A stretch of 59,355 bases of DNA from positions 1 through 59,355 of the forward strand of contig JBMFRC010000020.1 of the NCBI GenBank assembly GCA_049968235.1, in the 5' to 3' direction. Within the stretch, counting starts at the first letter, position 1, and each line of letters begins with the position of its first letter. The translations under genes were made by a program, and so were the position numbers. The notes under the pieces were generated by a model, which saw only the letters and a program-made list of their open reading frames with translations, had not been told where the DNA came from and did not search any database. Below are positions 51,777-59,355 of the stretch, in pieces. Source of the DNA: Candidatus Hydrogenedens sp. Lineage in GTDB: Bacteria > Hydrogenedentota > Hydrogenedentia > Hydrogenedentales > Hydrogenedentaceae.

Positions 51777-52754
51777 TTATTTATGTTCTTCGTAATATCT
51801 TGTTAAGGCACAACCTGCACAACCGATAACGCCACTGTCTTCACCTAAACCGGCGGGGACAATCTCACATCGTTTTGCTGGCACTTCAAAGGCATTTTTC
51901 ATTACTGTTTCCCGAACAGGGTTAAATAAAACATTACCTGCGGATATCATTCCACCACAAAGAATAACCCGTTCTGGATTTAACATATTAACGATGCTGG
52001 CAATACCCAGACCGAGCCATACTGCTGTTTCATGGAATACTTCCCTGGCAAGTGCGTCGCCTTTTTCGACTGCCTGAAAAATCATCTTACCCGTGATAGT
52101 ATGAATATTGTTATGGCATATTTCTGTCAATATAGTTTTCTTTCCTTTTTCAATTTCTTCCTGTGCAGTGCGGACCATACCCGTTACCGATGCGTACGCT
52201 TCTAAACATCCTTTAGAACCACAACCGCATAATCTACCATCCCTCTGGACCTTCAAATGTCCTAATTCTCCTGCAGTTCCATCAATACCACGCAGCAACT
52301 TCTTAAAAACAACAATACCACCACCTACTCCTGTGCCTAATGTCAGCACCGCGATACAATCACAACCCTGGCCTGCTCCCAGCCAATATTCTCCAAAACA
52401 TGCTGCATTCGCATCATTTTCAATATAACAGGGGACATTTAACCGTTTTCGCATTTCGTCGGCTAAAGGGACATTATGCCAGCCTGGCAAATTCGGTGGG
52501 CTATATACAATTCCCGTTTGCCAATTCATCGGACCCGGTGCACCAATTCCAACGGATAAAATATCTTGAGTCGTTAGACCTTCCTTATCCATTAACTCAT
52601 GCACGACATCAGCCATAGCATCCATAATGGCTTTGGGTCCTTCCTGTGTGGGCGTAGGGACGCTTGTTTTCACAACGATTCTTTTCTCTTCAGATACAAT
52701 AGCAGATTTTATATTTGTTCCGCCCAAATCAACACCAATAATATATTTACTCAC
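51777..52754 (-). CDS. ROK-family glucokinase
   Basis: IIGVDLGGTNIKSAIV. ROK zinc motif CGCGSKGCLEAYAS. Confidence 0.8.
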   Translation of the reverse strand: MSKYIIGVDLGGTNIKSAIVSEEKRIVVKTSVPTPTQEGPKAIMDAMADVVHELMDKEGLTTQDILSVGIGAPGPMNWQTGIVYSPPNLPGWHNVPLADEMRKRLNVPCYIENDANAACFGEYWLGAGQGCDCIAVLTLGTGVGGGIVVFKKLLRGIDGTAGELGHLKVQRDGRLCGCGSKGCLEAYASVTGMVRTAQEEIEKGKKTILTEICHNNIHTITGKMIFQAVEKGDALAREVFHETAVWLGLGIASIVNMLNPERVILCGGMISAGNVLFNPVRETVMKNAFEVPAKRCEIVPAGLGEDSGVIGCAGCALTRYYEEHK

Positions 52755-54216
52755 AGTTTATACCTCCTTTGTTATGTAAATATTCAATGGCTCTGGAAAG
52801 TCGTTCCAGTGTTTTTTCTTTCCCTAACAATTCCATAAGTTCAAAGAAGCCCGGTCCAACCGATTTTCCCGTAAGTGCAAGGCGTGTAGGATTTATCAAT
52901 GCACCTAATTTTATATTAAATTCAGCACAAACTTCATCAAAAACCTGCTTTAACGGGTCATGTTCCCACACAGATACACAGGACAGTTTAGTCTGAACCT
53001 TTTTTAGATAAGTAATTACCGTTTCTGGCGTTTTCCATAATTTTGCTTCCGCTTCCGATTCATAAGTATCAAAATCCTTGAAAAAGAAGTCAGAAAGAAA
53101 CACAATTCGATTTAAAGTTGGCAATTTTTCCTGACAAATTTGAGCCAATTTTGTCAACCATTCCTTACTTTTTGTAGATGTGTTAAACCCATGCTTTTCG
53201 AGGATAGGTATAAGGCGGTCACGAAGGTCTTCAACCGATAAATTGCGAATATGCAAACCATTAAGCCATTCTAATTTTTTCCGGTCAAATCGTGCAGCAG
53301 ACTTGTTAATTCGTTCGATTGAAAAATGTTCAATAAGTTCGGGCAGAGTAAAAAACTCGCGATTTTCCTCCTCCGATGTCCAGCCTAAAAGTGCTACATA
53401 GTTAACAATAGCCTCCGGCACATACCCATCTTCCCGCCAATCTAACACATTCGCACCATGCAATCTCTTACTAAACTTTCGACCTTGCTCATCATGAACC
53501 AGCGGATGATGTGCATAATGGGGGAGCGGAGCATCCAATGCCTTGAAAAGCATAATGTGGCGGGGGGTATTTGTTAAATGGTCATCACCGCGAATGACAT
53601 GCGTTATTTTCATCGTAATATCATCTACAACTACAGCCAGATGAAAAACCGGATCACCATTGGCACGAAGAATGATAAAATCATCATACTGACTGTTCTT
53701 AAAAACAACCGTCCCTTGAATAAGGTCATTTACCACCGTCTCACCTTCCGGCACACGAAAACGAATTACATAAGGGGCATCCCCTTTTTCACGAACCTGT
53801 TCCGGGGTTAAATTCCTGCAAAAACCCGGATAATACAGATTCCCTGTTTCATCTTTATAAGATTCCAAACTTTCCTTTGAACAAAAACACTTATAGGCTT
53901 TCCCCCGTTCCAATAATTGATAAGCCATTTTCCTATAAAGTTCTTTCCGTTGACTTTGACGGTAAGGAGCATAATCCCCTTTCTCAGGCACATCACCAAA
54001 CGGGGGTCCCTCATCCCAATCAATCCCTAACCACTTAAACCCCTCACACATCCCGAAAACATACTGTTCATCTGTTCGCTCCGCATCAGTGTCTTCCAAT
54101 CTTAATATAAATGTTCCCTTATTCTTACGAGCAAAAAGCCAATTATACAATGCAGTCTTAGCAGTACCTATATGCAAAAAGCCTGAAGGCGAAGGTGCTA
54201 TTCGTGTGCGAACCAT
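52747..54216 (-). CDS. gltX: glutamate--tRNA ligase
   Basis: HIGH motif PSPSGFLHIGTAKTA. KMSKS variant KFSKR. Confidence 0.9.
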   Translation of the reverse strand: MVRTRIAPSPSGFLHIGTAKTALYNWLFARKNKGTFILRLEDTDAERTDEQYVFGMCEGFKWLGIDWDEGPPFGDVPEKGDYAPYRQSQRKELYRKMAYQLLERGKAYKCFCSKESLESYKDETGNLYYPGFCRNLTPEQVREKGDAPYVIRFRVPEGETVVNDLIQGTVVFKNSQYDDFIILRANGDPVFHLAVVVDDITMKITHVIRGDDHLTNTPRHIMLFKALDAPLPHYAHHPLVHDEQGRKFSKRLHGANVLDWREDGYVPEAIVNYVALLGWTSEEENREFFTLPELIEHFSIERINKSAARFDRKKLEWLNGLHIRNLSVEDLRDRLIPILEKHGFNTSTKSKEWLTKLAQICQEKLPTLNRIVFLSDFFFKDFDTYESEAEAKLWKTPETVITYLKKVQTKLSCVSVWEHDPLKQVFDEVCAEFNIKLGALINPTRLALTGKSVGPGFFELMELLGKEKTLERLSRAIEYLHNKGGINCE

Positions 54217-54418
54217 AATGTTCCTTACAACAATTCATAATTTAATTTTATGGAATAAAGAGATTTTATAATACCACGAATATCCACATATTTTCACATA
54301 TCAAAAAAACACCCAAAAAAAATCATAACAAACAATCTCTCACCACCTCGCAATCTATACTTAAACAACTATATTATTTATAATCATTAGTCTTATTAGA
54401 TAGTGAATAAAGCAATTT

Positions 54419-54450
54419 AAAAAAAATAAATGCCCCCACTGGGAGGGCAT
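54419..54450 (-). terminator. intrinsic terminator of the tracrRNA
   Basis: Minus-strand RNA AUGCCCUC-CCAGU-GGGGGCAU: 8-bp stem (one G-U), 5-nt loop, followed by UUUAUUUUUUUU. Confidence 0.6.
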
Positions 54451-54492
54451 TGGCTACCTTTTACGGATACCCTTACGCAGCAGAACTCCTTA

Positions 54493-54528
54493 CTATGTTA
54501 AGAGGAGAAATGCTCGCTCTGCTATAAT
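54493..54528. repeat. solitary degenerate CRISPR repeat copy, inverted relative to the array (encodes the tracrRNA anti-repeat)
   Basis: CTATGTTAAGAGGAGAAATGCTCGCTCTGCTATAAT versus the reverse complement of the array repeat, GCTATGTTTTGAGGGAAGTGCTCGCTCTGCTATAAT. The 3' 18 nt and 5' 7 nt are identical; the middle is diverged. Confidence 0.75.
54520..54528 (+). promoter_or_regulatory. putative cas9 promoter: extended -10 TGCTATAAT contributed by the degenerate repeat
   Basis: Perfect TGnTATAAT on the + strand, 116 nt upstream of the cas9 ATG. No recognisable -35. Confidence 0.35.
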
Positions 54529-54536
54529 CTTTTTTA

Positions 54537-54565
54537 ATTATAGCAAAAAAAAATTGAAATGTCAA
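54537..54565 (-). promoter_or_regulatory. tracrRNA promoter (consensus sigma70 with extended -10)
   Basis: On the minus strand: TTGACA (54565..54560), exactly 17 nt spacer, TGCTATAAT (54545..54537). The predicted TSS is about 54530, at the first nucleotides of the anti-repeat. Confidence 0.6.
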
Positions 54566-54643
54566 ATTATATTTGGTAAATTATTTAATATAATTATTGA
54601 CAAATTTTTATTTTTAACCAAACACAAAAAAAGGAGAAAGAGA

Positions 54644-57600
54644 ATGAACAATACAGATAACTTTGATAACTTTAGTCCTTATACATTAGGTCTTGATTTA
54701 GGTTCCAATTCTATCGGTTGGGCACTTATTAAATTAGATGAGAACGATAATCCCTGTGGAATTGAGAAGGTGGGTGTTCGCGTATTTGAGGCGGGTATGG
54801 AAGGTCAGTATGAAAGTGGAAAAGAAGAATCGCGAAATAAAAAAAGAAGGGATGCCCGGTTAGCTCGTCGTCAATATGAACGCCGTGCTCGAAGGTATCG
54901 TAAGTTAGCAAACTTACTTCAGAAGATAGGATTACTTCCGGAGGGCGATATGAATAATAGTTTAGAAAGGCAAGCCATTCTGGATACATTAGATAAGGAA
55001 TTACGTTCCAGATATATTAATCCCAATCTTCCTGAAGAAGAAAAAAATCGACTGAACCAAATATTTATCTATTACCTCCGTTCATTGGCAGTCGAGCAGA
55101 AGTTAGAACCGTTTGCATTAGGACGTATCCTATATCATTTATGTCAGAGACGCGGATTCTTAAGTAATCGTCGTGGACAAAAACAAGATGATGAAGAACG
55201 AGGAAAAGTAAAGGAAGGAATCGCCGAAATTCGACAGGAAATGAGCCGATTAGGTGCAGAAACACTCGGTAGATATTTTGCTAAAATTGACCCTCTTGAA
55301 AAACGAATACGCGGGAGATGGACTGCCCGTGATATGTATGAACAAGAATTCTATACTATCTGGGAACACCAGGCAAAATATTATCCAGAACTACTCAACG
55401 ATACAAATAAAAAACAAATCTTCCGTGCAATATTTTTTCAACGCCCCTTAAAATCGCAAAAAGATAAAATTGGGTTTTGCCAGTTTGAATGTATCAAACT
55501 AGGTGCCCAACGCAACCGTCGCCGGGCTCCATGGTTTATACTCAAAGCACAAAGGTTCAGATTGCTACAAAAAGTGAATGATTTGTTAATTGTAGAAGAT
55601 AAGTTTACAAAAAGACCTCTCACAGATGATGAACGAAAAATAATTATAGACCATCTTGAAAAATATGGAGATGAAACCTTTGCACAATTGCGCAAACTGT
55701 TGGGTTTGAAAAAGACAGTAAAATTCAATCTGGAAGAAGGTGGAGAAAAGAAAATTCGTGGAAATAGAACCGCAGGTGCTATTCGTGAAGTTATCGGTGA
55801 ACTATGGGACAACATGCCGGATGCGGAGCGGGATAAACTTGTTGAAGATATATATTCCATTGTCAGTAATAAAGCATTAAAGAAACGATTAATAAACCAT
55901 TGGAAATTCACAGAAGAACAAGCAGAAAAATTATCGGAAATAAGCATTGAAGATGGTTACTGCAATCTATCCCGTCAGGCAATTGATAAATTCCTGCCTG
56001 GACTGGAATCGGGAAAACACTATTCTACATTAGTCAAAGAAATTTATGGGATAGATGACATTAATATCATAGTTAACCTGTTACCCCCCTTAGAATCCGC
56101 CCCTATTGGCGAAATTCGGAATCCAACCGTAACACGAACATTGGCGGAAATGAGAAAAATCGTTAACGAACTTGTAAAACGATATGGCAAGCCAAAGTTT
56201 ATTCATATTGAAACTGCACGAGATTTAAGGAATACAAAAAAAGAACGAGAGAAGATTTGGAAAAATAACAGATATTTGGAAGAAGTTCGTGAAAAAATAA
56301 AAAAAGACCTGATAAGTAAAGGTATCTCCAATCCAACAAATGATGATGTTGAACGATATATGTTAGCAGATGAGTGTGGTTGGGTTTGTCCTTATACAGG
56401 TCGTTCTATTAGTTTTAATGCCTTATTTGTCGAATCTCAATTCGATATAGAACATATAATTCCGCTCAGCCGCTGTCTCGATAATTCATTCAAGAATAAA
56501 ACATTGTGTTATCACGAGGAAAATAGGAATAGAAAGCATAATCAAACGCCGTTTGAAGCCTATGGCTCAAATGAAACACAATGGAATGAAATTTTAAGAA
56601 GGGTCGAAAATTTTAGTTCGATATACGCAGTAGAAAAATTAAAACGATTTAAAATGCACGGGGAAGATTTAGACGAATTCATCGATAAGTTTTCTGCATC
56701 TCAATTAAATGACACGCGCTACGCTTCGAGAGAAGCAAGAATATACTGTGCTTTGCTATACGGAAAAGAATATCGAAAACATGTATTCACCGTATCTGGT
56801 TCAACAACAGCAGTCATACGGCGTATGTGGGATTTGAATAAGATATTAGGTAGTGCGGAAAAAAATAGAGAAGACCATCGACAGCATGCTATCGACGCTA
56901 TCGTAATTGCCCTGACTTCACCTGCAATGATAAAGAGCATTTCCCAACAGGCAGAAAAAATCCCGAAAGATACCCCCAAACGATACCGCTGGTGGAGACA
57001 TATTAAACCGCCATGGGATACTATCTTTAACGAAGCCCATGAAAAAGTGCTGAATATTATTGTCTCACACCGTCCCGAACGAAAAGTGAGCGGTAGACTT
57101 CATGAGGAAACAAATTACAGTCCACCCAAACCCGGTGATAAAGAAGGAGAAACCGTTGTTCATGTAAGAAAATCTTTAAGTAATATTTCTAAGGGTGAGA
57201 TAGAAGAAATTGTTGACCCGGTTGTTAGGGAAACAGTAAAAAAGAAATTAGAAGAATTGGGGGGAGACCCGAAAAAAGCCTTTGCTGACCCCGCGAATTA
57301 TCCATTAATGCCCAATAAGAAAGGACTTCATATACCTATACGCCATGTGCGTATTCGTAAAAAAATGAATGTTTTCCCCATAGGCAAAAATGAACGAATT
57401 CGTTATGTCGCCACAGATGAAAATCACCATGTGGAAATTTTTGAGACAAAAGATAAAAAAGGAAAAACCATCTGGGATGCTAATGTGGTCAGCATGTTCG
57501 AAGCAATGCAACGAAAGAAAGAGGGCAAAGAAATTATCCAGCGAAAACTTATCCGCGATGGGAAAGTTGTCGAAGATGCAAAATTCCTCTTTAGCCTCTG

Positions 57601-57844
57601 CAAAGGAGATGTGGTTTACATGAAAGAATTGTATGATGAAAACAAATATGAATACTTTAAATTAATAAAAATGGATATAAACTGTGTATTTATGTTTCTT
57701 CCAATTTACATGGCAAAAATACCACAAAAAAATGGTAAGAAGGATTTTACAGGATTAACAAGAAAACCAAGTTCTCTTTTAACTTCTGATGCAAAGAAAT
57801 GTTCTATCAATGTTTTAGGAGAAGTGCAAATAGCACATGACTGA
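54644..57844 (+). CDS. cas9: Cas9, type II-C (1066 aa)
   Basis: RuvC-I LGLDLGSNSIGWAL (Asp18). Arg-rich bridge helix RRDARLARRQYERRARRYRKL. RuvC-II IHIETARD (Glu523). HNH FDIEHIIP...N (His604, codon 56453..56455). RuvC-III HHAIDAIVIA (His748/Asp751). The ATG at 54644 lies 7 nt after AAGGAG. The ORF-track start at 54554 adds a spurious 30-aa extension. Confidence 0.9.
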   Translation: MNNTDNFDNFSPYTLGLDLGSNSIGWALIKLDENDNPCGIEKVGVRVFEAGMEGQYESGKEESRNKKRRDARLARRQYERRARRYRKLANLLQKIGLLPEGDMNNSLERQAILDTLDKELRSRYINPNLPEEEKNRLNQIFIYYLRSLAVEQKLEPFALGRILYHLCQRRGFLSNRRGQKQDDEERGKVKEGIAEIRQEMSRLGAETLGRYFAKIDPLEKRIRGRWTARDMYEQEFYTIWEHQAKYYPELLNDTNKKQIFRAIFFQRPLKSQKDKIGFCQFECIKLGAQRNRRRAPWFILKAQRFRLLQKVNDLLIVEDKFTKRPLTDDERKIIIDHLEKYGDETFAQLRKLLGLKKTVKFNLEEGGEKKIRGNRTAGAIREVIGELWDNMPDAERDKLVEDIYSIVSNKALKKRLINHWKFTEEQAEKLSEISIEDGYCNLSRQAIDKFLPGLESGKHYSTLVKEIYGIDDINIIVNLLPPLESAPIGEIRNPTVTRTLAEMRKIVNELVKRYGKPKFIHIETARDLRNTKKEREKIWKNNRYLEEVREKIKKDLISKGISNPTNDDVERYMLADECGWVCPYTGRSISFNALFVESQFDIEHIIPLSRCLDNSFKNKTLCYHEENRNRKHNQTPFEAYGSNETQWNEILRRVENFSSIYAVEKLKRFKMHGEDLDEFIDKFSASQLNDTRYASREARIYCALLYGKEYRKHVFTVSGSTTAVIRRMWDLNKILGSAEKNREDHRQHAIDAIVIALTSPAMIKSISQQAEKIPKDTPKRYRWWRHIKPPWDTIFNEAHEKVLNIIVSHRPERKVSGRLHEETNYSPPKPGDKEGETVVHVRKSLSNISKGEIEEIVDPVVRETVKKKLEELGGDPKKAFADPANYPLMPNKKGLHIPIRHVRIRKKMNVFPIGKNERIRYVATDENHHVEIFETKDKKGKTIWDANVVSMFEAMQRKKEGKEIIQRKLIRDGKVVEDAKFLFSLCKGDVVYMKELYDENKYEYFKLIKMDINCVFMFLPIYMAKIPQKNGKKDFTGLTRKPSSLLTSDAKKCSINVLGEVQIAHD

Positions 57845-58730
57845 ACATATTATAGACCTGTCCGAAGAAGGTGGACGGCTGAATATCGATTTAGAACGAT
57901 TAGCAATAACACAAGGGGAGAAGGAATTTTTTATTCCCTTAGCAGAAGTATCTGTGGTAATTGTTTCACATCCGGCTGTAACTTTAACACAACCCGTATT
58001 GTCCGGCTTAATGAAGTATGGAGCCGTATTTATTACCTGTGATGAAAAACGAATGCCCATCGGTATGATGTATCCATTAGTGGGACATCATCTACAAATG
58101 GAAAAATTAAAATATCAGATAGAAGCCTCTTTACCTATACGCAAACGAGCATGGCAACAGATTATTAAATCAAAAATTCAAGCACAGGGAAACTTATTAT
58201 TAGAATTACACGGAGACGATAAAGGTCTAATTCCATTAGCAGAACGCGTGCAGTCCGGTGACCCGGATAATGTGGAAGGACTGGCAAGCAGGAAGTATTG
58301 GAATTTTTTATTCCCAGCCGAATTTGAGTTCCATCGAAATCCAGAAGCAGGGGGAATTAATGCCCTGCTGAATTATGGATATGCTATTCTACGCGGGATT
58401 ACAGCAAGAGCCATCGTTAGTGCAGGGCTAAATCCAAGTATCGGCATTCATCATCACAACCGATATAATCCGTTTTGCCTCGCTGATGATTTAATGGAAC
58501 CCTATCGACCCATTGTAGATTTTGCTGTGGTGAAGTTTATGCGGGGAAAAGATGCCTTTGTTGAACTAAATAAAGAAGCAAAACAATTTCTGATACAAAA
58601 TTTGATGAAAAAATATAAAATGAATGATGAAGAACGAAACTTGTTCGATATTACTTTTAGAACCGCTGTATCCCTTGCTCAGATGTTTGAGGGAAAAAGA
58701 AAAACATTAATACTCCCTGAAATTGTATAA
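57837..58730 (+). CDS. cas1: Cas1 (type II)
   Basis: Motifs CDEKRMP, LNYGYAIL, DLMEPYRP are shared with type II Cas1. An 8-nt overlap with the cas9 stop indicates translational coupling. Confidence 0.9.
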   Translation: MTEHIIDLSEEGGRLNIDLERLAITQGEKEFFIPLAEVSVVIVSHPAVTLTQPVLSGLMKYGAVFITCDEKRMPIGMMYPLVGHHLQMEKLKYQIEASLPIRKRAWQQIIKSKIQAQGNLLLELHGDDKGLIPLAERVQSGDPDNVEGLASRKYWNFLFPAEFEFHRNPEAGGINALLNYGYAILRGITARAIVSAGLNPSIGIHHHNRYNPFCLADDLMEPYRPIVDFAVVKFMRGKDAFVELNKEAKQFLIQNLMKKYKMNDEERNLFDITFRTAVSLAQMFEGKRKTLILPEIV

Positions 58731-58849
58731 ATATAATCCATGGCTAAAAAAGCCACGAACTTGCAAATTAAGAACAAATTAAACCATGAAAAGCCATGAG
58801 CAAGAAAAAAGATAAAAATAAAAAACCTCAAATATCAGGATATAAATCT

Positions 58850-59155
58850 ATGTGGATGATCGCTATGTTCGATTTACCTGTGGAAACAAATGAAGACCGA
58901 AAACATGCTACGCAGTTTCGAAATTTGCTATTAAGAGAAGGATACTCCATGTTGCAGTTTTCCGTTTATGGCAGATATTTCCCAAGCGAAGAAGCAAGTG
59001 AACCCTATAAAAAAAGAATTCGTCAAAGTATTCCACCACGAGGAGAAGTCCGACTCCTCTATATTACTGATAAACAGTTCGAGAAAATGGAAATCTTCGT
59101 GTCAAAAAAGAAACGAAAAGCAGAAGAACCTACCCCACAATTACTACTTTTTTAA
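58850..59155 (+). CDS. cas2: Cas2
   Basis: MWMIAMFDLPV...RNLLLREGYSMLQFSVY matches the Cas2 core (MLVLVTYDV-type start). The ATG at 58850 lies after AGGA. The ORF-track start at 58796 adds a Lys-rich 18 aa without an SD. Confidence 0.8.
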   Translation: MWMIAMFDLPVETNEDRKHATQFRNLLLREGYSMLQFSVYGRYFPSEEASEPYKKRIRQSIPPRGEVRLLYITDKQFEKMEIFVSKKKRKAEEPTPQLLLF

Positions 59156-59175
59156 TAAAAAATCCTCCCTTTTTA

Positions 59176-59190
59176 ACTATGTTTGAGGGA
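59176..59190. repeat. partial degenerate inverted repeat fragment between cas2 and the array
   Basis: CTATGTTTGAGGGAT matches the first 16 nt of the reverse-complement repeat (CTATGTTTTGAGGGAA) with one T deletion and one substitution. Confidence 0.4.
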
Positions 59191-59204
59191 TTTATAAATT
59201 TTAG

Positions 59205-59355
59205 ATTATAGCAGAGCGAGCACTTCCCTCAAAACATAGCTTATCCATTAGCAACTCTCTAACGGTTACCATTATAGCAGAGCGAGCACTTCCCTCAAAA
59301 CATAGCAGACTCGAATTGACATTGACACCACCGACAATTATAGCAGAGCGAGCAC
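59205..59355. CRISPR. CRISPR array, 36-bp repeat ATTATAGCAGAGCGAGCACTTCCCTCAAAACATAGC, 30-bp spacers; truncated by the window end; probably transcribed on the minus strand
   Basis: Identical repeats at 59205..59240 and 59271..59306, and a partial one at 59337..59355. Spacers at 59241..59270 and 59307..59336. The minus-strand form of each repeat ends in TGCTATAAT. Confidence 0.9.

What the first reader, a model, noticed from the sequence alone, without database searches (positions are those of the whole stretch)
54419..54565. tracrRNA gene defined at nucleotide level: consensus promoter, anti-repeat with bulge, nexus, terminator
The minus strand between gltX and cas9 encodes an RNA with three defining parts. 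Its first 18 nt equal the repeat 5' end on the + strand. It then continues into a partly mismatched segment (UUUCUCCUCUU) and ends in AACAUAG matching the repeat 3' end, giving the lower stem-bulge-upper stem geometry of type II guide duplexes. It is followed by UAAGG, as in the Spy and Nme nexus, and by a strong intrinsic terminator. The promoter is a textbook TTGACA-17-TGCTATAAT. The + strand alternative has no hairpins or terminator and runs into cas9.
Basis: seen in the sequence. Interest (0 to 1): 0.8.

Follow-up and report, generated by a model that had tools for sequence, protein, structure and literature searches.

The report
tracrRNA gene beside a type II-C cas9
The stretch between gltX and cas9 very probably encodes the small helper RNA (tracrRNA) that every Cas9 system needs; it is cleanly delimited and conserved in relatives, but it is an ordinary new example of a well-known kind of gene.

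Summary
On the minus strand of 54419-54565 lie a 12/12 sigma-70 promoter with TG extension, a 37-nt near-copy of the CRISPR repeat (18 nt exact), UAAGG, two hairpins and a 9-bp terminator with a U-run.

The locus is type II-C: cas9 (1066 aa), cas1, cas2 and a 36-nt-repeat array. It comes from a Candidatus Hydrogenedens genome.

The RNA equals the plus-strand repeat, so it can pair only with crRNA read from the minus strand. Three things support that direction:
- every repeat carries a minus-strand TTGAGG-16-TATAAT promoter with a TG extension;
- the minus/minus duplex is more stable (-56.2 vs -48.7 kcal/mol);
- across 13 loci, G.U pairs favour it 34 to 7.

All 21 related loci examined have a tracr-like anti-repeat next to cas9, on the divergent strand in every one except L017. 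In the 13 loci with a known repeat, each anti-repeat tracks its own repeat. The tail helices show compensatory changes.

One oddity: this copy has a G.G mismatch in the nexus helix, which is paired in all 11 aligned relatives.

This is a new member of a known kind, with modest interest. No expression data exist.

The parts
54560..54565 (-). tracrRNA promoter, -35 box TTGACA
   Evidence: Promoter scan, 12/12 match. Invariant in the five relatives aligned.
54537..54545 (-). tracrRNA promoter, extended -10 TGCTATAAT. The predicted start is A54530, 7 nt downstream.
   Evidence: TATAAT is invariant in relatives and the preceding TG is kept in all but L011 (GGGTATAAT); the n of TGnTATAAT varies.
54492..54528 (-). 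Anti-repeat, 37 nt. It pairs with the whole 36-nt repeat of the minus-strand crRNA.
   Evidence: 18-nt exact match. Duplex energy -56.2 kcal/mol with a lower stem, internal loop and upper stem. Tracks its own repeat across loci.
54477..54491 (-). AAGG plus the nexus-like hairpin GGAGU-UCU-GCUGC. G54478 makes a G.G mismatch.
   Evidence: Helix found by RNAalifold, with compensatory changes in relatives. Local energy is -1.5 kcal/mol here against -5.8 in relatives.
54452..54472 (-). Second tail hairpin (GG.UA.CC / GGUA.CC)
   Evidence: The equivalent bipartite helix in relatives shows changes on both sides.
54419..54451 (-). Intrinsic terminator: a 9-bp stem, a 5-nt loop and the UAUUUUUUUU tail
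   Evidence: Three of its seven aligned pairs show compensatory changes.
54644..57844 (+). cas9 (1066 aa; ATG at 54644), the protein partner
   Evidence: TIGR01865 at 747 bits, with HNH_4, RuvC_III and Cas9_a domains. The nearest solved structures are Cas9 chains of about 1082 aa, E about 1e-80.
57837..59155 (+). cas1 (57837-58730, NMENI type) and cas2 (58796-59155)
59205..59355 (-). CRISPR array, cut by the window end. The 36-nt repeats start at 59205, 59271 and 59337, with 30-nt spacers. In crRNA sense the repeat reads GCUAUGUUUUGAGGGAAGUGCUCGCUCUGCUAUAAU, and each complete repeat holds a TTGAGG-16-TATAAT promoter with a TG extension.

Best explanation
This is the tracrRNA gene of a type II-C CRISPR-Cas9 locus in a Candidatus Hydrogenedens genome.

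Proposed mechanism:
- A strong constitutive-type promoter starts an RNA of about 105-112 nt at about 54530 on the minus strand, and the RNA ends in the U-run at 54419-54428.
- Its 5' 37 nt pair with the repeat part of crRNAs. These crRNAs are made from the minus strand of the array by a promoter inside every repeat, as in Neisseria and Campylobacter.
- The duplex has an 8-bp lower stem closed by a G.U pair, a UU/UU internal loop and a long upper stem.
- The tail that follows has AAGG, a short nexus hairpin, a second hairpin and a terminator hairpin. It is the scaffold bound by the 1066-aa Cas9, which then cuts DNA matching the spacer.

Shown here: the sequence elements, the pairing, conservation, co-variation with the repeat and compensatory changes in the tail.

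Inferred: transcription, the exact RNA ends, any RNase III trimming, Cas9 binding and activity.
For: - Locus type: cas9, cas1 (NMENI type), cas2 and a 36/30 array.
- Promoter 12/12 with TG, and a terminator, both on the minus strand.
- The 18-nt exact anti-repeat has 0 matches expected by chance.
- Duplex energy is -56.2 kcal/mol (minus/minus) against -48.7 (plus/plus).
- Across 13 loci the minus/minus duplex is more stable in 11 and essentially tied (within 0.3 kcal/mol) in 2. G.U pairs number 34 against 7. Own repeat/anti-repeat energies are -44 to -56 kcal/mol, against -11 to -43 between the near, far and distant groups of loci; within a group, where repeats are nearly identical, cross-pairings are as strong as the own pairs.
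- Each repeat has a minus-strand TTGAGG-16-TATAAT promoter with TG. This is the known type II-C arrangement (PMC12080349; PMC3737331).
- Promoter, anti-repeat and tail are conserved in 12 loci whose Cas9 is 74-83% identical, while sequence beyond the terminator diverges.
- The same layout occurs in 7 loci at 45-48% Cas9 identity and 2 at 29-32%.
- Tail helices: 93.6% of cells are paired against at most 55% when partners are slid, and 6 pairs have changes on both sides.
- The RNA follows cas9, not gltX. gltX is the neighbour in only 5 of the related loci.
Against: - There are no transcript data of any kind.
- No Rfam family matched, even at E up to 10.
- In this copy the second pair of the nexus helix is G.G, whereas all 11 aligned relatives have G-C there and two more distant loci appear to have A-U. 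This lowers the local stability from -5.8 to -1.5 kcal/mol.
- The free RNA as a whole does not fold significantly better than shuffles (z = -1.65).
- The tail structure was derived from the same alignment on which it was counted.
- No protospacer was found to confirm crRNA polarity through the PAM side.
Confidence: 0.9

Rival explanations
1. A real tracrRNA gene that is impaired in this particular genome. The C-to-G change at 54478 breaks the second base pair of the nexus helix, so Cas9 loading or cleavage is weakened and the locus may be decaying.
For: G.G occurs only in the window. All 11 aligned relatives have G-C there and two more distant loci appear to have A-U. Hairpin energy is -1.5 against -5.8 kcal/mol. 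The window's tail is the most divergent of the close family.
Against: - cas9, cas1 and cas2 are intact ORFs with full-length family matches.
- The array repeats are identical to each other.
- The promoter is perfect.
- The other four nexus pairs, hairpin 2 and the terminator are kept, partly through compensatory changes.
- A single internal mismatch may be tolerated, or it may be an assembly error.
Confidence: 0.12
2. The anti-repeat is used in the other direction. The array and a tracrRNA are both read from the plus strand, so the tracrRNA would run from about 54493 into the cas9 5' region.
For: Complementarity is nearly symmetric (-48.7 kcal/mol plus/plus). Two related loci give essentially equal energies in both directions (L004, L011). 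A plus-strand TGCTATAAT lies at 54520-54528.
Against: - There is no plus-strand terminator.
- No promoter sits upstream of the plus-strand anti-repeat.
- The conserved, structured tail lies on the minus-strand side.
- G.U pairs would become A.C mismatches (34 against 7).
- Repeat-embedded promoters face the minus direction.
Confidence: 0.03
3. A stray, degenerate inverted copy of a repeat with no function. Such solitary repeat units occur in type II loci (PMC10120712).
For: Repeat-like debris does occur in CRISPR loci. A second partial inverted repeat exists in this locus at 59177-59191.
Against: - A perfect promoter and a terminator bracket it.
- The whole unit is conserved at Cas9 identities from 83% down to 29%.
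- It changes together with the repeat.
- Its non-repeat tail has compensatory base changes.
Confidence: 0.02
4. A leader or small RNA belonging to gltX, which lies downstream on the same strand (for example a T-box-type leader).
For: gltX (52747-54216, minus strand) starts about 200 nt after the terminator.
Against: - No T-box or other Rfam family matched.
- The RNA ends in a strong terminator with no alternative antiterminator evident.
- In most related loci the same RNA sits next to cas9 without gltX.
Confidence: 0.01

Closest known systems
Neisseria meningitidis Nme1Cas9 tracrRNA and type II-C locus
   Same: - Cas9 of about 1,080 aa is the nearest solved relative (E about 1e-80).
- The gene set is cas9-cas1-cas2 only.
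- The repeat is 36 nt and its 3' end is a -10 box: TACAAT in Nme, TATAAT here.
- The array is read opposite to the cas genes (PMC3737331).
- The lower stem is 8 bp, closed by G.U and followed directly by AAGG. Compare GUUGUAGC/GCUACAAU-AAGG in the Nme sgRNA (PMC6594998) with GCUAUGUU/AACAUAGU-AAGG here.
   Different: - The Cas9 alignment covers only part of the protein (272 bits over residues 143-768).
- Beyond AAGG there is no sequence similarity in the tail.
- The first tail hairpin is short here (5 bp) and long in Nme.
- The tracrRNA gene lies upstream of cas9 on the opposite strand. From my memory, not checked here, the Nme gene lies downstream of cas9.
Campylobacter jejuni type II-C tracrRNA and crRNAs
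   Same: Each repeat carries its own promoter, spacers are acquired at the last transcribed repeat, and the array is antisense to cas (PMC12080349; PMC3737331).
   Different: Cas9 similarity is much lower (E about 1e-28). The tracrRNA position differs and there is no sequence similarity.
Streptococcus pyogenes tracrRNA (type II-A)
   Same: The gene is divergent from and upstream of cas9. The module order is the same: anti-repeat, AAGG with a short nexus hairpin closed by GG/CC and followed by G, then further hairpins and a terminator. The Spy sequence is recalled from memory, not retrieved here.
   Different: - S. pyogenes is type II-A with a larger Cas9, and its array is co-directional with cas.
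- It has a long tracr-L form with a 5' extension that represses the cas9 promoter (PMC10120712).
- Here the predicted start is within 0-2 nt of the anti-repeat in every locus, so no such long form is predicted.
Uncharacterised tracrRNA homologues in Hydrogenedentes and other metagenome-assembled genomes
   Same: The RNA is directly alignable at 77-86% identity in 12 loci. It has the same architecture in loci with 45-48% identical Cas9.
   Different: The window copy has the most divergent tail of the close family, plus the nexus G.G mismatch. None of these RNAs is annotated or described in the papers searched.

Membership tests
tracrRNA (trans-activating CRISPR RNA of type II systems) | Encoded within or next to a type II cas operon, in an intergenic region | tested here: met
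   It lies in the 427-nt gap between gltX and cas9, 114 nt from the cas9 ATG. The locus has cas9, cas1, cas2 and an array.
tracrRNA (trans-activating CRISPR RNA of type II systems) | Anti-repeat able to pair with the repeat of the crRNA in the transcribed orientation | tested here: met
   34 pairs and -56.2 kcal/mol with the minus-strand repeat transcript. 0 chance matches are expected. The minus direction of the array is supported by promoters in the repeats and by G.U asymmetry.
tracrRNA (trans-activating CRISPR RNA of type II systems) | Lower stem, bulge or internal loop, and upper stem geometry of the guide duplex | tested here: met
   8 bp, a 2x2 UU/UU loop, 4 bp, a 1-nt bulge and 22 bp. 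The same layout occurs in 12 other loci.
tracrRNA (trans-activating CRISPR RNA of type II systems) | Own promoter and Rho-independent terminator | tested here: met
   12/12 promoter with TG, and a 9-bp terminator with a U-run. Both are conserved in relatives.
tracrRNA (trans-activating CRISPR RNA of type II systems) | Structured 3' tail (nexus plus hairpins) conserved with the Cas9 lineage | tested here: met
   Three helices are predicted by RNAalifold. 93.6% of cells are paired against at most 55% in slid controls, and 6 pairs show compensatory changes. Caveat: the window's nexus has one G.G mismatch.
tracrRNA (trans-activating CRISPR RNA of type II systems) | Anti-repeat co-evolves with the cognate repeat | tested here: met
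   Own pairs give -44 to -56 kcal/mol. Pairs between the near, far and distant groups of loci give -11 to -43; within a group the repeats are too similar to discriminate.
tracrRNA (trans-activating CRISPR RNA of type II systems) | Expressed, binds Cas9, and is required for crRNA function and interference | not testable with these tools
   No transcriptome or biochemical data are available.
Type II-C CRISPR-Cas (Nme/Cje-like) | cas9-cas1-cas2 without csn2 or cas4, with a compact Cas9 | tested here: met
   Three cas genes followed directly by the array. Cas9 is 1066 aa and Cas1 matches TIGR03639 cas1_NMENI.
Type II-C CRISPR-Cas (Nme/Cje-like) | Promoter inside each repeat, with the array transcribed towards the cas genes | tested here: inconclusive
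   A consensus-like TTGAGG-16-TATAAT with TG lies on the minus strand of both complete repeats. Similar sites occur in relatives' repeats, read by eye from the sequences. Promoter activity has not been measured.
Any curated Rfam family (including tracrRNA models) | Match to a covariance model at or near its gathering score | tested here: not met
   No hit at gathering thresholds in the whole window. Only chance-level hits (E of at least 0.4, 18 bits or less) in 54200-54700. tracrRNAs are known to be too diverse for a single model (PMC3737331).
T-box or other gltX leader | Leader RNA continuous with the downstream aminoacyl-tRNA synthetase gene | tested here: not met
   There is no Rfam T-box match, a strong terminator lies 200 nt before gltX, and the RNA is found without gltX in most relatives.

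The most novel reading that the evidence does not exclude
The DNA encoding the anti-repeat may also be a promoter for cas9. The anti-repeat copies the repeat, and the repeat ends in a -10 box. Its opposite strand therefore carries TGCTATAAT (54520-54528, plus strand) pointing at cas9, interleaved with the tracrRNA promoter. The two predicted starts lie about 5 nt apart, and each -10 box lies inside the other's transcript.

In more distant relatives the tracrRNA promoter abuts the cas9 start codon. In L023 and L024 the only plus-strand promoter-like site before cas9 is this repeat-derived one inside the anti-repeat. If this reading is right, RNA polymerase would choose between making tracrRNA and making cas9 mRNA at one compact element, coupling their dosage.
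Probability: 0.2. Interest if true: 0.45.

Novelty: new member of a known kind. Interest (0 to 1): 0.25.

Why it matters
The result gives a nucleotide-level definition of the guide-RNA scaffold for an uncharacterised, compact (1066 aa) Cas9 lineage from Hydrogenedentes. That is what is needed to design a single-guide RNA and test the enzyme.

It also shows that several hallmarks extend to a little-studied phylum and to about 20 related metagenomic loci:
- the Neisseria/Campylobacter style of crRNA production, with a promoter in every repeat and an array read towards the cas genes;
- the AAGG-nexus module.

It does not change any concept. A tracrRNA next to cas9 is expected.

Tried and rejected
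- Rfam. A whole-window scan at gathering scores and a permissive scan of 54200-54700 gave only chance-level hits to SIB_RNA, ctRNA_pGA1 and others.
- Viral contigs. A search for the invariant 18-mer TTAACATAGTAAGGAGTT gave two hits (L015, L016). Neither has an anti-repeat or tail and both look like ribosome-binding-site contexts, so they are chance matches, not phage-borne tracr or sgRNA mimics.
- Protospacer and PAM search, to fix crRNA polarity independently. Two window spacers against viral contigs and the 65-spacer array of L001 against the phage collection gave no match.
- A tracrRNA promoter derived from a repeat. TGCTATAAT forms a palindrome with the anti-repeat start, but the n of TGnTATAAT is C, G, A or T in relatives. 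The resemblance therefore reflects the extended -10 consensus.
- Folding the free full-length RNA pairs the anti-repeat with the tail and is not significantly stable. I treated this as irrelevant to the duplexed state and analysed the tail alone.
- A literature search for a described Hydrogenedentes Cas9 or tracrRNA found only Cas12b papers.

Full report
**What is in the sequence.**
- The gap between gltX (52747-54216, minus strand; TIGR00464, 517 bits) and the next gene is 427 nt.
- The next gene is cas9. Its ORF runs from 54554, but the ATG with a ribosome-binding site is at 54644, which gives 1066 aa. It matches TIGR01865 at 747 bits and carries HNH_4, RuvC_III and Cas9_a domains.
- cas1 (NMENI type) and cas2 follow.
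- From 59205 there is a CRISPR array of 36-nt repeats (ATTATAGCAGAGCGAGCACTTCCCTCAAAACATAGC on the plus strand) with 30-nt spacers, cut by the end of the window.
- This is a type II-C layout. The nearest solved structures are Cas9 chains of about 1082 aa (E about 1e-80); I recognise these entries as Neisseria meningitidis Cas9.
- A 99%-identical partial protein is labelled Candidatus Hydrogenedens sp. The best full-length relative is 83% identical.

**Check of the observation.**
- TTGACA at 54565-54560, 17 nt, TATAAT at 54542-54537 preceded by TGC. The scan scores this 12/12 with TG, the only perfect site in 54000-59355.
- Seven nucleotides downstream is A54530.
- From 54528 the strand reads ATTATAGCAGAGCGAGCA, identical to the first 18 nt of the plus-strand repeat. 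With up to three mismatches this pattern occurs only here and in the three repeats, with none expected by chance.
- UUUCUCCUCUU, AACAUAG and UAAGG follow.
- The terminator is a 9-bp stem (54451-54429, -12.9 kcal/mol) followed by UAUUUUUUUU.
- No plus-strand terminator-like site exists in 54000-59355.
- Small corrections: the 17 nt lie between the hexamers, and the RNA probably begins with AG before the anti-repeat.

**Which strand is used.** An RNA equal to the plus-strand repeat can pair only with a crRNA transcribed from the minus strand of the array.
1. Each complete repeat carries TTGAGG-16-TATAAT with a TG extension on the minus strand, with the -10 box at the very end of the repeat.
   - This is the arrangement described for type II-C systems: each repeat has its own promoter, and new spacers enter at the last transcribed repeat (PMC12080349).
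   - The arrays of N. meningitidis and C. jejuni are read opposite to the cas operon (PMC3737331).
   - With a start 7 nt after the -10 box, the guide would be 24 nt. This is an inference.
2. The minus/minus duplex is more stable than the plus/plus one (-56.2 against -48.7 kcal/mol), because two positions are G.U rather than A.C.
3. In 13 loci with known repeat and anti-repeat, minus/minus wins in 11 and is essentially tied (within 0.3 kcal/mol) in 2. G.U pairs number 34 against 7.
4. The promoter, the terminator and the conserved tail are all on the minus-strand side.

**The duplex.** From the spacer side it has an 8-bp lower stem (GCUAUGUU/AACAUAGU, closed by G.U), a UU/UU internal loop, 4 bp, a one-nucleotide bulge in the tracrRNA, and 22 bp. 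The Nme1Cas9 single-guide RNA printed in PMC6594998 has the same 8-bp lower stem closed by G.U and followed by AAGG (GUUGUAGC/GCUACAAU-AAGG).

**Relatives.**
- Searches with Cas9 brought in 12 loci at 74-83% identity, 7 at 45-48% and 2 at 29-32%.
- In the close set the promoter, the anti-repeat and the first 20 nt of the tail are almost invariant, while sequence past the terminator is unrelated.
- The distant sets have different repeats. Even so, each has a divergent RNA gene before cas9 whose 5' part copies its own repeat. After the anti-repeat come AGUAAG(G/A), a short hairpin, CGCAGG, a hairpin that usually has a UACG or CACG loop, and a terminator.
- Own repeat/anti-repeat energies are -44 to -56 kcal/mol, against -11 to -43 between the three groups of loci; within a group the repeats are nearly identical, so cross-pairings there are as strong as the own pairs.
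- gltX is the neighbour in only five close relatives. There it is 90-92% identical, while Cas9 is 74-83% identical. The RNA therefore travels with cas9.

**Tail structure.**
- RNAalifold on 12 tails, with the anti-repeat removed, predicts three elements. These are a nexus hairpin directly after AAGG, a bipartite second hairpin, and the terminator.
- On that structure 93.6% of cells are standard pairs, against 34-55% when the partners are slid by 1-3 columns.
- Six of 17 pairs show changes on both sides, and no shuffle reaches the observed covariation score.
- The caveat is that the structure was derived from the same alignment.
- In the window the elements map to 54489-54477, 54472-54452 and 54451-54429.

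**An oddity in this copy.**
- The second pair of the nexus helix is G.G (G54478 on the minus strand). All 11 aligned relatives have G-C there, and two more distant loci (L022, L023) appear to have A-U.
- The local hairpin energy falls from -5.8 to -1.5 kcal/mol.
- The rest of the window's tail also differs most from the close family. Part of that difference is compensatory, and one relative (L017, 67% Cas9 identity) shares the window's version of the second hairpin.
- I cannot tell whether the mismatch is tolerated, mildly harmful, or an assembly error.

**Comparison with what is known.**
- The region passes each step of the published in-silico definition of a tracrRNA (PMC3737331). "Upstream of cas9" is one of the four usual positions.
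- 76% of the repeat-like intergenic sequences in type II loci lie next to cas9 (PMC10120712).
- No Rfam model matches. That is expected for this very diverse RNA class.
- No paper in the library describes a Hydrogenedentes Cas9 or its RNA.
- This is a new member of a known kind.

**Side observations.**
- The tracrRNA -35 box is half of a palindrome (CTTGACATGTCAAG in relatives). Its other half is a plus-strand -35 box, followed 17 nt later by TAAATT. This is a candidate cas9 promoter set back to back with the tracrRNA promoter.
- The anti-repeat DNA carries on its plus strand the repeat's own TGCTATAAT, facing cas9. In L023 and L024 that repeat-derived site is the only plus-strand promoter-like site before cas9.
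- The 49-nt leader between cas2 and the array holds a conserved inverted partial repeat, and probably a terminator for transcripts leaving the last repeat.

**Verdict.** Novelty is low. Interest is 0.25, mainly as a ready-made scaffold definition for an untested compact Cas9.

Noticed in passing
window 59205-59232 and 59271-59298 (minus strand): Each complete CRISPR repeat contains TTGAGG-16-TATAAT with a TG extension on the minus strand, and the -10 box is the last 6 nt of the repeat. Repeats of more distant relatives carry TTGACA-16-TACAAT or similar. A start 7 nt downstream would give 24-nt guides.
   Followed up: partly
window 59156-59204 (leader between cas2 and repeat 1), motif at 59177-59191: aCTATGTTTGAGGGA is an inverted copy of the repeat's other end, one base shorter. 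It is conserved in all 9 related loci compared. It follows repeat changes in two lineages (L003, L011) but not in two others. On the minus strand, AAAUCCCUC...GGGAGGAUUU plus a U-run could terminate transcripts from the last repeat's promoter before they run antisense into cas2. More distant relatives have a strong hairpin, sometimes a clear terminator, at the same place.
   Followed up: partly
window 54554-54582 (plus strand): The tracrRNA -35 box is half of a palindrome (TTGAAATGTCAA here, CTTGACATGTCAAG in relatives). The plus-strand half, TTGAAA, followed after 17 nt by TAAATT with TG, is a conserved candidate cas9 promoter set back to back with the tracrRNA promoter.
   Followed up: partly
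window 54520-54528 (plus strand); L023 2443-2470; L024 2417-2446: The plus strand of the anti-repeat DNA keeps the repeat's extended -10 box (TGCTATAAT) pointing at cas9. In L023 and L024 this repeat-derived site is the only plus-strand promoter-like site before cas9. In several distant relatives the tracrRNA promoter leaves only 15-45 nt before the cas9 start.
   Followed up: partly
window 54478: G on the minus strand gives a G.G mismatch in the nexus helix, which is paired in all 11 aligned relatives. It could be a tolerated variant, a mildly harmful one, or an assembly error.
   Followed up: partly
L017 1-206: In a relative with 67% identical Cas9 the tracrRNA gene lies upstream of cas9 but on the same strand. 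Its nexus loop holds an inserted 8-bp hairpin, no cas1 or cas2 follows cas9, and its second hairpin resembles the window's version.
   Followed up: no
L012 377-552: This tracrRNA copy has lost the middle of the anti-repeat and has a duplicated segment in the tail. It may be a decaying locus or an assembly artefact.
   Followed up: no
window 52747-54216 compared with 54644-57844: Among five syntenic relatives gltX is 90-92% identical in protein while Cas9 is only 74-83% identical. cas9 therefore evolves much faster than its housekeeping neighbour.
   Followed up: no
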